A stretch of DNA of 63,195 bases, counting the filler, from Reticulomyxa filosa (lineage: Eukaryota; Protista; Foraminifera): NCBI GenBank assembly GCA_000512085.1. It is 17 parts of 17 records of this genome, joined end to end, with 100 filler letters (N's around TTAATTAATTAA, not from the genome) between each part and the next. Parts side by side here need not be neighbours in the genome. Positions count along the whole stretch, not along the records: positions 16,839 to 28,529 come from ASPP01011166.1; 16 more parts are not named here. One strand, given 5' to 3'. A program made the position numbers and the translations under genes. The notes below the pieces were generated by a model. The model did no database searches and was not told the origin of the DNA. It saw nothing but the letters and a program-made list of their open reading frames with translations. Shown here one piece after another: positions 15,801 to 29,379 of this stretch. Numbering within the stretch: the stretch's first letter is position 1; every line of letters begins with the position of its first letter.

Positions 15801-16838
15801 GTCAAATTGTTCAAATCTATGTTTTGATCAAAATTGAGATATAAAAAATGATTCATGCCTTCTCCTATAGTAGAAGGACAAAAAAAGACAATATCCAACG
15901 CTGAATTCAATAATCGACTCTGTGTTCTTCCAAAGGCGTTGTAGTTTGTTGACTGATTTTGTGTTGCATTAAACTTTTTTTAATTCATAGTTTGTTGTAA
16001 GTATCAAGCCATGTGATTGTCCACAATGTTCAATCTTTGTAGTTTGAAAGTATTTTCTTTGTATCTTTGTCTTTGTTCCTGTTTCGTCACAATCTTGTTG
16101 AAGACGAAAATCATTGTTAATAACCACTTCGAACTTCGTTCAGATAATTTTTTTTTATAGACTGATTGCAGTGGGGGCGTGTCAAGTGTTGGACTACTAT
16201 CTCGCTTCGTCATCAACTCGCAATGCTTTTTGCCATCTATACATGCATAAACTCAGGTCTTTCTAGTTAAAAGAATACATCGTTCTAAGAAATAGAACAC
16301 AGTAATCAAAAAAAGAGACACAAAATCTTACACTAGCCAAAAGGTCCATTCAAAAAATAATAAAAAAAAACCCAATAAAGTTATTTCAATTTAAATTGAG
16401 ATCTACTTGAGAAAGCTTGACAATTGTTCAAATCCTTCTCTTGGTATCGACTACGAACTTGGCTGTTGCTTTCACAACTTTGATCATGACATCTGATTTC
16501 CACGATCGATCCCCAATAATGAATTGTTTCATTGGCAGGGACAGTGTATTGATATCTGGAAGAATTATTGGACATTTGTCCACTAATTGCAACGTAATTC
16601 AATGTACCGCGAATATTCCATCAGGGAATGCTCGACAGTTTCTTCTTTTTCACACCAAATACAATCAGGAGAATCTGATCTTTGGATATTGTACAAATAA
16701 TCATTCAATAAAAAAATAAATAAAATAAAATAAAATAANNNNNNNNNNNNNNNNNNNNNNNNNNNNNNNNNNNNNNNNNNNNTTAATTAATTAANNNNNN
16801 NNNNNNNNNNNNNNNNNNNNNNNNNNNNNNNNNNNNNN

Positions 16839-16854
16839 GGTAATAACAAATAAC

Positions 16855-16918
<64 letters not shown>

Positions 16919-17289
16919 GTAATAATGGTAATCAAGAATACTCCTCCTCTTCCTCCAATGCCAGACACACTGTTTCGTATACATTAAACCCCATTTCCAA
17001 TGATAAGGCCATCGACATGACTTATATCAAAAGTGATGCCATGTATTCACACAAACCCATTGTCTATTTACACAATGTCTCCAATATCGAAATGGAAAGA
17101 AATCTCTTGCTGAGACAAATCCCTGCCGAATTATACAAGAAAGGAATTGTTGTCTGCGGAAACAAAGGAGAAGTTCGAATCTCTCAAAGTAAACATTCCA
17201 ACACTACCTCCATTGATGCCACTCTCACTTCTGACTATTTCAATATTCAAGATGCTATCTTGTCTCAATTTGAAGTCAAGTCCATTTAA
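16839..17289 (+). CDS. CPSF2: CPSF100 (CPSF2) C-terminal fragment preceded by poly-Asn
   Basis: HKPIVYLHNV...LLLRQIPAELYKKGIVVCGN...IDATLTSDYFNIQDAILSQF aligns with the CPSF100_C pattern (L..GI.AEF.GGVLVC...LEG.L..DFY.IR.LLY.QY). Confidence 0.8.
16856..16917 (+). repeat. (AAT)n trinucleotide repeat encoding poly-Asn
   Basis: Seen directly, in frame with the CPSF100 fragment; a similar tract lies at ~61885-61927. Confidence 0.9.
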
Positions 17290-17697: not shown

Positions 17698-18671
17698 ATG
17701 AGTTCTGAAGACATCAATTCATTAAAGCGAAAAGGTGATGAAGCCTTTATAAAAGGTGGTCGAGATGAAGAAGCGATTGAGCATTATACCAGTGCATTGA
17801 ACATCGCAAAAGGCCTAAAGACGTACGACGATCGACAGCGAGCAAAAATGTATTCATCTCGTGGTGAGTGTTATCTGCGAACTCAGCAATATGAAAAGGC
17901 AGTGGCAGATTGCACAGAGTCATTAAAACTCGATCGCACGAATTTCAAATCGCAGTTTCGCAGAGCGAAGGCCTATGCGCAACTGAACCAAACAGAAGCA
18001 GCCATTGCAGATTTGAAAATCGTGATTCAAAAAGACAGTGATAATACTCAAGCCAAGGAGTTGCTGAAAGAACTGGAATCGAAGTTGAAAGGCGACCAGC
18101 CCACAGAAGAAAAGTCGGCAGCATCAAAAACAAATGAAGGAACAGCCGAAAGCACACGAAAAAGCAACAAAACCGATGATGACATGGACGTAACGAAAGA
18201 GGATCAAAATAGAATATGTGACTATAATGCATTAAATCAAAAAAGAATTGATTTGGAAGAAGAAATTTCTGTGCTTTCAGTTTTTGAACTTTTTTTCCCT
18301 TCCCTCCCCCTTCCCCTTTTGTTTTGGAAAAGAAAAATATTTTTATTACTAACGCCGTAGGGTTTTGTTTTTGTTAGAGAGACATTGGTCAATTGGAAGC
18401 AGCAGAGTCAATGATAGGGATGCTATTGGATGAGCATTCCGTGCGTCTGCAAGTGGGCTACACTTTTTTTGCAATTCCCAACGACACTGGCGACGAGCTT
18501 GTAAAACAGCAATTGAAAGCACTGAAAGCACGCCGTGTTGATTTCACATTCCAATTGGACAGCATCGTCATTGAAATGAAAAAACAGAGGGGTATTTTGA
18601 AAGCCAAATTCAAAGACAAAATTGGACTACCCAAAATTGAACACGCTGAAAACGAACAAGAAAATGAATAA
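17698..18671 (+). CDS. PFDN4: TPR co-chaperone domain fused to prefoldin subunit 4; intron 18280-18377
   Basis: Three TPRs (LKRKGDEAF...AIEHYT; YSSRGECY...AVADC; KSQFRRAKAY), then DVTKEDQNRI...EEEISVLS|RDIGQLEAA...RLQVGYTF...LKAKFKDKIGL, collinear with PFDN4. Confidence 0.85.
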
Positions 18672-19077: not shown

Positions 19078-20355
19078 TTAGTCAAACTTAGCTCTTCGAA
19101 TATTATTTAAAAGAACTGGCAAGGACGGAATTAAAACTACTAAAGGAAATAAAAAGCAAGCAGCATACTGCTGAGAGAAGAATAACTCAAATCGACTTTT
19201 GTGATTGGGATGTAAATTGAATATTCCATCCAAAACGATTCCCAAATACACCGCGAGCATACAAGCACAATTGTGTTGAGAGGCATAAAAAGGAAGTTCA
19301 TAACGAAATGGTCTGACATGCACCAAGCGACTATAATGATAAGCAAAAGGTAGCGTTAATAACAATAATACAAAAACAGTGGTGGGAATTCCGCTCTTTC
19401 CATGTTCATTTTCGTTCCAGAATAAATACAGCACAGCCAAAATAAAATAGCTGAATGCCATCCCAACGTTATGAACTTTCGCACTTGTGTTCAGTCCTAA
19501 AAACACAGGCAGCGTTATCTTGTTTACTGCCTTGTCCGCTTGTATATCGTTCATATTCATTACCATCATCCGCACGTACTCAACAATTCCTACAATTTTT
19601 TTTTTTTTCCAATAAAAAAATAAGCAAGTACTTGCATACACACTTTACAAGCTAACATAAGTATACGTGTACATGTTAGTATACCTCTCTACCAAAAGGG
19701 GGATGAGCAAAAAAAACAAACAAACAAACTTACCAATTGGAATAAGGCATTTCCAAAAGACATGAGATGGAAAGGGTGAACCGTCACCAGAGTGTTGCAA
19801 TAAGTATGATTCCAACGGACATAAAAAGTTCAATACTAAAGTGACCCATAGTTCTCCCATGCAACGTCTTGAAGCTCGGATAGGCGGAAGAGAATATTGC
19901 CCTGCGAGTATCATTCCAGAAACGGCAACATACACGGCATAAATATGATAAGACACTGCGTGAAATGTATACATGACAAATACCCCAACACTTGCTATTA
20001 AAATCAACCCCGCGTATAATGCAATCTTCCGTGGTAACAGTCCTTTTACCAACACTTGTGATCCTCCCGTCCACGGGCTGGCTGCCGCATTTATTGTGTC
20101 CGTGTCAAAGTCCACATATTCATTAAAAAAATGGGTCATTGCGTGAAGGCCATACACCACCGCTATTCCGATAAAGTATTCTTTCACCTGAAATGGTTTT
20201 CCATCGCTCAAACACGACACCACTGCTCCTATACTATACATTATTGGGCTGTAAGCAAGAAATTTTAATCTTCCTAATTCCATCAGTGCACGTCCTTTTT
20301 CTTTCAAGCTAGACGAACTTGAGTACGCTTCATTTTCTTTGGACATTTTTGACAT
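19078..20355 (-). CDS. menA: UbiA-family prenyltransferase (MenA/UBIAD1-like), one intron ~19590-19731
   Basis: HFFNEYVDFDTD and NMNDIQADKAVNKITLPV Asp-rich motifs, TGGS, YSLPP, multiple TM segments. Confidence 0.85.
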
Positions 20356-26179: not shown

Positions 26180-27566
26180 ATGACTACTCTTATTAATAAA
26201 AAAGGGATTTCAACGCAATTCTTACTGGTATGCTTCACGTTAATCTTTTAAAAAACTAGATTACTATTATATTTATTCTATGTGATTTATGATTGAGTAA
26301 GTCAAAAGAAGGAGAGGCGGAAATAATTATCCAACATTGGATCAGAATATTAAAAGTTAGATTAATATGGATCCGTGATCTTGAAAAACTTATTATCAAT
26401 TATGTTATGTTTCTTTTTTTTTTTTTTTTTAAATACAACGCTAATCAATGTTCATTCATAATAGCCATTTAACATAGGTTGTTACAGTCTTCATATTTAA
26501 CGCGTTTCGTTCATCGTCTAAATTTCTCAAAAATTTCTGTAGGCATAAAGATTATGTGTGGAGCATTGATTATTCAACATTTGATGACCGTCAGCTTATT
26601 TGTTCTGGATCATCAGATAAAACAGTTCGTGTATGGGATGTTGAGACTAATAAACAAATTCGATTATTCAATCAGCATTCAAGTTATGTGTATTGTGCAA
26701 AATTTTCACCATATCATTATCATAAGCATCATCGCAATGTTATTTGTTCTTCATCATGGGACAAAACGATTCGTTTGTGGGATTTCAAACGTAATCAACA
26801 ATTAAAAATATTCAATGGACACACAAGTTATGTTGTTGGAATTGATTTTTCACGATTTAATGGTGGTCGATATGTATGCTCTGGATCATTTGACAAAACT
26901 GTTTGTTTATGGGATGTTGAAACATCCAAATCGTTACATATTTTCAATGGACATACAAATACTGTTTGGTGTGTTGATTTTTCATCATTACAAAGTAATA
27001 ACAAGGATGATAATAATAAAAGTAATAGTATTGGTTTTATTGGTGGTAATGGATATACCATTTGCTCTGGATCATTGGATAAAACTATTCGTATTTGGGA
27101 TATTGAAACAACAAAACAATTGATTTTACTCAACAAGCATAAAGCTGCAGTGAGGTGTGTAAAATATGGATCAAATGAATTAGGAATAAGCGATGGTGCA
27201 AATGCAATATTATCGGGATCAGATGATAAAAGTGTTTGTTTATGGGATATTCGATCTGGTCAACAAATTCAAGTATTCAACAGACATAGACATTGGGTTA
27301 TGACTGTTGAATATTCACCATTTGTAGTAAATAATAACAAAGTTGGTGGTAGTTCAAATGTAATATGTTCCGGATCGACTGATAATATAATTCGTTTTTG
27401 GGATATTCGATCAAATAAGAAAAAATTATATGCAATCAATGGAGATAAGCAAGATTGTGGAATATATTGTCTTAAATTTTTACAATTAAAGAAGAAAAAC
27501 AAAAGTGCTTGTGATATTAGTTTATGTTATGGCTCACGAAAAGGTCGTATTAGTATTTGGGGATAG
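26180..27566 (+). CDS. WD40-repeat protein (Reticulomyxa-type expanded family), multi-exon
   Basis: Repeated ICSGSxDKT(V/I)R(V/L/I)WD units; upstream exon EIIIQHWIRILKVRLIWIRDLEKLIINY; ends ISIWG*. Confidence 0.9.
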
Positions 27567-29379
27567 TATCATTTTCCAACAAAAAAATGTTTTTACTGAG
27601 TTGATTTTTTTGGAGTGAATTAATTGAAATAAATTTTTTCTCTCAACAAATTACATAATATACATTCTGATACATCAAAATGATATCTGTTGTATTTAAG
27701 TATTCTTCTAATTGATATTATTAATGCAAAGAGAACAAAAAACTCAAAATTAACAAAGAAAAAATAATTAGCAACTATTCTGATTGGTTGCATGGCAAAT
27801 ATTTAAAAAAAAAACTGTAAACCTGCCAATATTTTCATTTATTTTTTAAGCATTAATATCTCTCCTCTTTGAAAAAAAATTCGTTTTGGGGATATTTCAC
27901 CAGCTCATTTGTTTGAGAAGCCCTAATTGTTGGAAGTTGTCCAATTTCTCTAAGAGCACAGCGTTGAGATTGCATTTGAATCTCGCTTTCTCTCAATTCA
28001 CGCAATAGATAATTGTTCTCACGTTTGCTGAGACATTAAAATAGTACAACTCACGTACGGGAAAAAGAATTAGTTCGAACAACGCTTTACAAAGTTCACT
28101 TTTGGGAGCAAACGGATCAAGAAAAATATTCTTGTGCTTGCGAGAAATGTATTTTGTATTTTTTCCCTACTTGTAAGTTGTAATCTCTTTCAATTTTTGC
28201 TTTGTTAAATTGTGTAGTAGATCTTAACTATTTTAAACAGAAAGAAATATTCTGTATTCAGTTATAATGAATACAATGGCAATAACGGTCTGGGTGTTAG
28301 AAGATATTACATTCCTGTGGCAATAATTATGTGAACCATAGCTAGAATGAAGCACATTAAATAAATCTTTTTAAGTATCCTCTGTTACATTCAAATTGTA
28401 CTAAAACCACTTGGCTATTAATTGTATTTTATCCGTTCCAAAACATAATTATTGTTAATTTATTTACTATGGATTTCATTTTTTTTAGAAAGTTCAATCT
28501 GTATGAATATGAACAGCTACAGTAGGTTGNNNNNNNNNNNNNNNNNNNNNNNNNNNNNNNNNNNNNNNNNNNNTTAATTAATTAANNNNNNNNNNNNNNN
28601 NNNNNNNNNNNNNNNNNNNNNNNNNNNNNAAGACAAATTTGAAACCTTGCATTAAAAAATATGCAAAAAAAAAAGGAATAAATCCTATTTATGAACATAT
28701 CACGTAGATTACCACCTTTCAAATTAGGCTCAGACTTGCCAACCATACATTGTCCCTCCCGTCAGCTCTTATCGTCTAACACATAAAAAAAAACATTAAT
28801 AATAAAAAAGTAATTAATTAAGTTTGAAAAAAGTATTTCATTTCCAAATTCGAATACTGCAATCAACATGGCCAGATACAATAGTATTTCGAAAAATATC
28901 AATACAAGTAACATAATCGAATTTCTTTATAATCAGAACATGACAATTGTTCAACAATCTGAAAAATATTTTGCATCGTTCACAACATCTAGATTTTCCT
29001 TAAATATTTTCATTTTCTTTCATTTAAAATAGAATATTTCAATTTTATTATATAAACATGATATAATATATTTATTAACTGACAAAGTTTTCCATATAAT
29101 TTATGATTAAAATATATTTCGCATAGTTTTAATTTTTCATTCTGAATATAATGTAGCATCAAGATCATTAAATAATAAATTTATCATTAATCACAATCAA
29201 TTATATGTAAAATATACATTACACTAGCATTGCCTATTATATGTATTTTATTATATTTATTGTATAACATAAAATATAAATATAATTTTATAGTTATATT
29301 ATGATCAAAATAATCATAAGTATTTTTTTTTATAAAATATTTAATTAATCTTTTTTATACAATATTGTTATTACTTGAC

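What the first reader, a model, noticed from the sequence alone, without database searches (positions are those of the whole stretch)
17698..18671. TPR co-chaperone domain fused to prefoldin subunit 4
Seen: the TPRs, a linker and the start of PFDN4 (DVTKEDQNRI) are in one exon, so the fusion is not a splicing artefact. Splicing 18280-18377 restores the PFDN4 register (EEISVLSRDIGQLEAA versus human-type EEIEVKKKQLQNLEDA). Established: PFDN4 is normally a small stand-alone subunit of prefoldin, which delivers actin and tubulin to CCT, and 3-TPR clamps bind the Hsp70/Hsp90 EEVD tail. The clamp keeps K and K...R but the two Asn positions read D and S. Inference: a physical link between prefoldin and Hsp90/70, perhaps relevant to the divergent foraminiferan tubulins. 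I do not know of this architecture elsewhere.
Basis: partly seen in the sequence, partly recalled or inferred. Interest (0 to 1): 0.75.

Follow-up and report, generated by a model that had tools for sequence, protein, structure and literature searches.

The report
Prefoldin subunit with chaperone-docking TPR arm
This foraminiferan gene joins a three-repeat TPR domain, the kind that normally grips the tails of Hsp70/Hsp90, to subunit 4 of the prefoldin chaperone; the join recurs in other Rhizaria and likely tethers a partner chaperone to prefoldin, although here two of the five gripping residues are changed.

Summary
Confirmed. Two exons (17698-18279, 18378-18671; 98-nt GT-AG intron) give a 291-aa protein, identical to Reticulomyxa filosa RFI_15255. 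It has a 3-TPR domain (1-130), a disordered linker and a beta-prefoldin domain (Pfam 28.6 bits, cut-off 27.6; best PDB hit human PFDN4). Contigs of two public runs skip this intron. The fusion is not unique to this genome: 12 clusters carry it, including a second R. filosa paralog, an Ammonia transcriptome protein and Cercozoa sp. M6MM; one origin is not rejected (AU p 0.43, 0.83). The clamp is canonical (K-N-N-K-R) in 8 of 12 and altered (K-D-x-K-R) in 4, including this one, yet the TPR is more conserved than the prefoldin half between paralogs (77% vs 63%). Cafeteria has a parallel fusion on PFDN1, and other PFDN4s carry MYND, FKBP or helical extensions. A link to foraminiferan tubulins is unsupported. 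Binding and complex membership are untested. Ten paper searches showed no description. The scan noted the same fusion before on other DNA (e1-9822576). New variant of a known kind.

The parts
17698..18087 (+). Three-TPR domain with capping helix (aa 1-130); clamp positions K10, D14, S54, K84, R88
   Evidence: Pfam TPR_1 E 1e-15; seven helices, pLDDT about 90; Z 21.0, rmsd 1.8 over 128 aa to TOM70 and Z 18-20 to other clamp TPRs; clamp mapped on HOP TPR1
18088..18189 (+). Disordered linker, aa 131-164 (6-43 aa in relatives, 0-26% identity)
   Evidence: pLDDT under 50 for 133-162; lengths and identity
18190..18279 (+). Start of the PFDN4 domain, first helix (aa 165-194), still in exon 1
   Evidence: Prefoldin_2 from aa 170; aligns to the N-terminal motif of human PFDN4
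18280..18377 (+). 98-nt GT-AG intron, phase 0, with TACTAAC motif and T-rich 3' end
   Evidence: skipped in contigs of X2 and X3, no depth inside
18378..18671 (+). Exon 2: rest of helix 1, beta-hairpin, helix 2 and acidic tail of PFDN4 (aa 195-291), stop TAA

Best explanation
The gene encodes a prefoldin subunit 4 with a three-TPR domain on a flexible N-terminal linker, which likely sits in the canonical prefoldin hexamer and would hold a partner chaperone, most likely Hsp70 or Hsp90 by its acidic tail, at the open end of prefoldin. Shown: gene structure, the two domains, PFDN4 identity among solved subunits, conservation in Rhizaria, clamp residues. Inferred: (1) the PFDN4 half assembles through its hairpin in the PFDN4 slot; (2) because both ends of a prefoldin subunit lie at the tentacle tip (established knowledge), the TPR hangs next to the substrate opening and the PFD4-PFD6 contact with CCT4; (3) the ancestral K-N-N-K-R clamp binds an EEVD tail and so shortens hand-over of clients between Hsp70/Hsp90 and prefoldin-CCT; (4) in Reticulomyxa the K-D-S/A-K-R groove binds more weakly or prefers another acidic tail, but is still used.
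For: Profile of the fused halves hits human PFDN4 best (7wu7_4, E 8e-7; no other prefoldin chain listed to E 10). 146 of its 150 listed library hits carry a PFDN4-type end motif, and three of the other four differ by one motif letter. Helix-hairpin-helix model; Atlas model TM 0.95 to a PFDN4 cluster over 117 aa. Fusion in 12 clusters, with a transcriptome-derived Ammonia protein. Canonical clamp in 8 of 12 clusters and 10 of 14 rows. TPR identity exceeds prefoldin identity in R. filosa paralogs (77 vs 63%) and P0002/P0003 (83 vs 64%). In the foraminiferan-type clade 5 rows are whole fusions and 8 are fragments, none a whole stand-alone subunit. PFD4-PFD6 coils make the first contact with CCT4 (bioRxiv 10.1101/2022.03.25.483853, passages).
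Against: No binding or assembly was tested. D14 and S54 replace the two asparagines that contact the terminal Asp of EEVD (PMC5480384 Table 1, passages); an acidic residue there may repel it. The prefoldin half is divergent: 18 of 30 conserved PFDN4 columns kept, against a mean of 24.4 in 98 stand-alone-sized hits, and Pfam is only 1 bit over the cut-off. The fold search of the monomer gave no hit at E 0.001; the top 11 rows are prefoldins but at rmsd 6-9. A stand-alone PFDN4 in R. filosa is not excluded, since no genome was held.
Confidence: 0.6

Rival explanations
1. The protein is a prefoldin subunit, but in Reticulomyxa the TPR no longer binds Hsp70/Hsp90; it binds another partner (a CCT subunit tail, an acidic tubulin tail or a lineage-specific adaptor).
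For: N-to-D plus N-to-S/A/I in 4 of the 5 whole fusions of the foraminiferan-type clade; groove stays basic (K10, R11, K50, K84, R88, K91) and the domain is strongly conserved; PFDN4 N-termini elsewhere carry MYND, FKBP or helical modules, so the slot accepts adaptors of several kinds.
Against: All three basic clamp residues are kept; a clamp TPR with a changed N12 position (yeast Swa2, T382) still depends on its clamp lysines (PMC5480384, passages); Ammonia keeps the full clamp.
Confidence: 0.22
2. The fusion is an accessory paralog: a stand-alone PFDN4 serves the ordinary hexamer, and the fused form builds a minor variant prefoldin or a PAQosome-type module in the PFDN4/PDRG1 slot, supplying an RPAP3-like Hsp90 link.
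For: R. filosa has two fused paralogs; the prefoldin half is divergent; in human cells PDRG1 can replace PFDN4 in a minor complex (PMC11009110, passages); closest TPR structures include RPAP3 and SPAG1.
Against: No whole stand-alone subunit in the foraminiferan-type clade (0 of 13 rows); library hits are PFDN4-type; the TPR is about equally similar to many clamp TPRs, not specifically RPAP3.
Confidence: 0.14
3. The fusion is an annotation or assembly artefact, or a neutral read-through of two neighbouring genes.
For: No single laid contig spans the whole gene; runs are only guessed to be RNA.
Against: The domain junction is inside one exon in a gap-free contig; X2 and X1 contigs cross TPR3 to linker end, an X3 contig crosses linker to exon 2; 12 clusters at 24-64% identity keep the same order.
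Confidence: 0.02

Closest known systems
PFDN4 / Gim3, beta subunit of canonical eukaryotic prefoldin (human 7wu7_4, 6nr8_4)
   Same: Helix-hairpin-helix domain, both end motifs, hairpin glycine; best PDB sequence hit.
   Different: 160-aa N-terminal addition with a TPR domain; more divergent core (18 of 30 conserved columns); C-terminal motif ends IGL plus a 13-aa tail.
Carboxylate-clamp TPR co-chaperones (HOP/Sti1, TOM70, RPAP3/SPAG1, FKBP51/52, PP5, CHIP)
   Same: Seven-helix 3-TPR fold, Z 18-21, rmsd about 2; K, K, R clamp residues kept.
   Different: Both Asn positions changed in this protein; effector domain is a prefoldin subunit, which none of these has.
PAQosome (R2TP plus URI prefoldin-like module)
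   Same: Brings a prefoldin-type module and an Hsp70/Hsp90-binding TPR together (PMC8567396, PMC13153604, passages).
   Different: There the link is between separate proteins (RPAP3, WDR92, URI module); here it is covalent and on a PFDN4-type subunit.
Stramenopile TPR-PFDN1 fusion (Cafeteria KAA0150975.1; oomycete and diatom Atlas clusters); not found in print, noted earlier by this scan
   Same: Same order: clamp TPR, linker, beta-prefoldin; canonical clamp.
   Different: Prefoldin half is PFDN1 (E 1e-4 to 7wu7_1); the Atlas clusters score 0.96-0.97 to it against 0.91 to this protein.

Membership tests
Beta-prefoldin (Pfam Prefoldin_2) | Score above the gathering cut-off over the whole model | tested here: met
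   28.6 bits vs 27.6, model 1-105/106; homologs 32-70 bits; P0002, with a 16-aa insert, is not listed
Beta-prefoldin | Two long helices joined by one beta-hairpin | tested here: met
   H8-53, E56-61, E64-69, H73-113, pLDDT 79
PFDN4 orthogroup | Closer to PFDN4 than to PFDN1, 2, 6 | tested here: met
   PFDN4 E 8e-7, no other prefoldin chain to E 10; end motifs present
PFDN4 orthogroup | Distinct from PDRG1 (PFDN4-related) | tested here: inconclusive
   No PDRG1 sequence was held to compare; indirect support only: listed hits carry PFDN4-type motifs and the nearest Atlas model is named PFDN4
Canonical prefoldin hexamer | Assembles with PFDN1, 2, 3, 5, 6 and delivers clients to CCT | not testable with these tools
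   No R. filosa partner sequences were held; needs pull-down
Carboxylate-clamp TPR | Three TPRs plus capping helix | tested here: met
Carboxylate-clamp TPR | Five clamp residues K-N-N-K-R (HOP K8, N12, N43, K73, R77) | tested here: not met
   K10, D14, S54, K84, R88: 3 of 5 in this protein; 5 of 5 in 8 of 12 fusion clusters
Carboxylate-clamp TPR | Binds the EEVD tail of Hsp70/Hsp90 | not testable with these tools

The most novel reading that the evidence does not exclude
SAR protists have repeatedly hard-wired Hsp70/Hsp90 docking onto prefoldin: a clamp TPR on PFDN4 in Rhizaria, on PFDN1 in stramenopiles, with MYND, FKBP and helical modules in the same PFDN4 slot elsewhere. The fused PFDN4 is the only PFDN4 in foraminifera, giving a direct Hsp70/90-to-prefoldin-to-CCT relay that is unknown in animals and yeast, and the Reticulomyxa line has retuned the clamp to a new ligand.
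Probability: 0.35. Interest if true: 0.72.

Novelty: new variant of a known kind. Interest (0 to 1): 0.52.

Why it matters
How Hsp70/Hsp90 and prefoldin-CCT pass clients between them is poorly defined, and prefoldin is usually drawn as a small six-subunit holdase without its own Hsp dock. A conserved natural fusion points to a physical link and supplies ready constructs: a canonical (Ammonia, M6MM) and an altered (Reticulomyxa) clamp on the same scaffold. It also marks the PFDN4 N-terminus as a slot for add-on adaptors. The parts are well known, and the scan has already flagged this architecture, which limits the surprise.

Tried and rejected
No whole genome was held, so the gene count of PFDN4 in R. 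filosa could not be taken. A search for stand-alone PFDN4 with a 23-sequence profile returned 14 proteins from 7,992 scored candidates, none named Reticulomyxa; it is too weak to show absence, and the same tool missed three of its own query members. No listed run is on record as RNA; X4 and X5 gave no useful cover. The metagenome contig scan gave 2 loci with generic TPR matches of 25-26%. Exon 2 alone has no PDB hit and scores under the Pfam cut-off. The fold search of the prefoldin monomer had no hit at E 0.001. The first domain extraction ran into the TPR for five rows and was redone. The synonymous/non-synonymous count on listed differences (11/10 and 19/10 codons) mixes ortholog- and paralog-type contigs and covers only the 40 rows shown, so it is not used. 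No complex prediction was sent: no Hsp70/Hsp90 or partner prefoldin sequence of a eukaryote was held. No EEVD-ending frame lies in the window. The CC-TPR review PMC12066812 is not held. Rejected: foraminiferan-tubulin adaptation as the cause of the fusion (it occurs outside Foraminifera); SAR-wide TPR-PFDN4 (the stramenopile form tested is PFDN1; chlorarachniophyte PFDN4 has a non-TPR extension).

Full report
Observation. The ATG at 17698 opens a frame that runs through three TPRs, a linker and the start of a prefoldin helix before a GT at 18280. Removing 18280-18377 (98 nt, GT-AG, 47% T, TACTAAC motif) gives 291 aa ending at 18671; unspliced, the frame stops at 18360. Fourteen GT-AG pairs keep the frame open, so the choice needed outside support. 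The protein database holds a 291-aa protein, P0001, named RFI_15255 of Reticulomyxa filosa, a monothalamid foraminiferan, which matches both exons at 100%. Contigs from two public runs of different studies, X2 and X3, skip the intron at this cut and show no depth inside it; these runs are only guessed to be RNA, the X2 contig has just 25 letters on one side, and some of their contigs look like the paralog or a relative (90-96% alike). The gene lies inside one gap-free contig of 11,691 nt.

Domains. Residues 1-130 match TPR_1 (E 1e-15), are modelled as seven helices at pLDDT about 90 and align to TOM70, OM64, Cns1, FKBP38, SPAG1, PP5 and HOP at Z 18-21. Residues 133-162 have pLDDT under 50. Residues 170-274 match Prefoldin_2 at 28.6 bits, 1 bit over the cut-off. 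A three-sequence profile of the C-terminal halves finds human PFDN4 as the only prefoldin chain in the PDB to E 10 (7wu7_4, E 8e-7). The same profile found 187 library representatives at E 0.001; of the 150 listed, 146 carry a PFDN4-type end motif, three differ by one motif letter and one is a spurious repeat protein. The half folds as helix-hairpin-helix. Its fold search gave no hit at E 0.001, though the top 11 rows are prefoldin chains, at rmsd 6-9; the Atlas model aligns to a PFDN4 cluster at TM 0.95 by the target. The half is divergent: 18 of 30 conserved columns against a mean of 24.4. PDRG1 could not be compared directly.

Distribution. TPR plus PFDN4 in the same order was found in 12 clusters: P0001, the R. 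filosa paralog RFI_28305 (P0002, whose record has a 16-aa insert at the intron position, probably a retained intron), unnamed P0003 and P0008, Ammonia sp. from an MMETSP transcriptome (P0006), Cercozoa sp. M6MM (P0079; that it is an ascetosporean is recalled) and six unnamed proteins forming their own clade (P0107, P0153-P0157). Five of the 150 listed representatives have the TPR. In the prefoldin tree (61 rows: 12 fusions, 8 fragments, 17 with other extensions, 24 stand-alone-sized rows drawn at random) a foraminiferan-type clade has SH-aLRT 98 and holds 5 whole fusions and 8 fragments, none a whole stand-alone subunit; one fragment begins in the TPR capping helix. One origin of all fusions is not rejected by either domain (TPR tree p-AU 0.425; prefoldin tree p-AU 0.833), which does not show it; M6MM falls apart from the others in both free trees. 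Chlorarachniophytes (Bigelowiella, Partenskyella) have PFDN4 with a non-TPR extension of about 75 aa, so the fusion is not in all Rhizaria.

Parallel fusions. The Atlas returns TPR+Prefoldin_2 clusters of oomycetes (83 members) and diatoms (61) at 0.91. A Cafeteria protein of this architecture has a PFDN1 half (E 1e-4 to 7wu7_1, no PFDN4 listed), and those clusters score 0.97 and 0.96 against it, so they are probably PFDN1 fusions; their sequences were not seen. The Cafeteria TPR sits next to 11 of the 12 PFDN4-fused TPRs with weak support (82/77) in a tree whose other rows were picked by similarity. Of 31 proteins chosen for a Pfam scan, 10 unnamed PFDN4s carry an N-terminal zf-MYND and one an FKBP. 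An oomycete TPR + alpha-prefoldin cluster also appeared.

Clamp. HOP TPR1 uses K8, N12, N43, K73, R77, and both asparagines contact the terminal Asp of EEVD (PMC5480384, passages with Table 1; Tah1 equivalents in PMC13153604, passages). This protein has K10, D14, S54, K84, R88. P0002, P0003 and P0008 share the D and have A, S or I at the third site; Ammonia, M6MM and the unnamed clade have the full set: 8 of 12 clusters, 10 of 14 rows. The altered TPR is not decaying: it is 77% identical between the two R. filosa paralogs against 63% for the prefoldin half and 26% for the linker, and its groove stays basic.

Mechanism. Most likely the PFDN4 half takes the PFDN4 slot of the hexamer and the TPR hangs from the tentacle tip on a 34-aa tether. 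Substrate cross-links map to the tentacles and their disordered tails, and the PFD4-PFD6 coils make the first contact with CCT4 (bioRxiv 10.1101/2022.03.25.483853, passages). A clamp there would hold Hsp70 or Hsp90 beside the opening and ease hand-over of clients. All of this is inferred; no binding or assembly was tested. Rivals are a retuned ligand in Reticulomyxa and an accessory or PAQosome-type complex, for which the human PDRG1-for-PFDN4 swap is a precedent (PMC11009110 and PMC8567396, passages).

Novelty. Ten full-text searches were run. The seven aimed at the fusion (17, 24, 25, 31, 32, 71, 81) listed 0 to 5 papers each; by title and abstract start none describes a TPR-prefoldin fusion, and of those I read passages of one (PMC13153604: 0 occurrences of 'fusion'). 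Subscription papers and supplementary domain tables were not seen and may list the architecture, which is visible in precomputed Pfam annotation. The scan's own notes report the same PFDN4 fusion in another genome, the PFDN1 fusion in a diatom and a TPR-bearing URI in oomycetes; I tested the first two claims independently in part. Verdict: real, conserved, apparently unstudied variant of known parts; interest 0.52.

Noticed in passing
Proteins P0023, P0027, P0033, P0039, P0042, P0043, P0081, P0100, P0122, P0190: PFDN4 with an N-terminal zf-MYND finger in 10 unnamed eukaryote proteins, several in the same tree region as chlorarachniophyte PFDN4; no earlier scan note found.
   Followed up: partly
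Protein P0010 (318 aa); P0013, P0045, P0186-P0189: FKBP + helical segment + PFDN4 in one unnamed protein; a helical extension without FKBP precedes PFDN4 in Bigelowiella, Partenskyella and unnamed relatives.
   Followed up: partly
Proteins P0165/P0179 (Cafeteria): Clamp TPR fused to PFDN1, canonical K-N-N-K-R; probably the form in oomycete and diatom Atlas clusters.
   Followed up: partly
Protein P0002 (RFI_28305): The annotated paralog has a 16-aa hydrophobic insert exactly at this gene's intron position, probably an unspliced intron; it loses the Prefoldin_2 hit for that reason.
   Followed up: partly
window 16839-17289 (+): 3' end of a CPSF100-like gene (Pfam CPSF100_C, E 1e-5) with a poly-Asn run, cut by the contig start.
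   Followed up: no
window 19078-20355 (-): UbiA-family prenyltransferase-like gene (E 2e-7, under the cut-off), convergent with the fusion gene; likely spliced.
   Followed up: no
window 26478-27566 (+): 362-aa open frame with WD40-like repeats by eye.
   Followed up: no
window, 16 places such as 16739-16838 and 28530-28629: The window is a string of contigs joined by spacers of two 44-N runs around 12 bases; neighbours across them are not real neighbours.
   Followed up: yes
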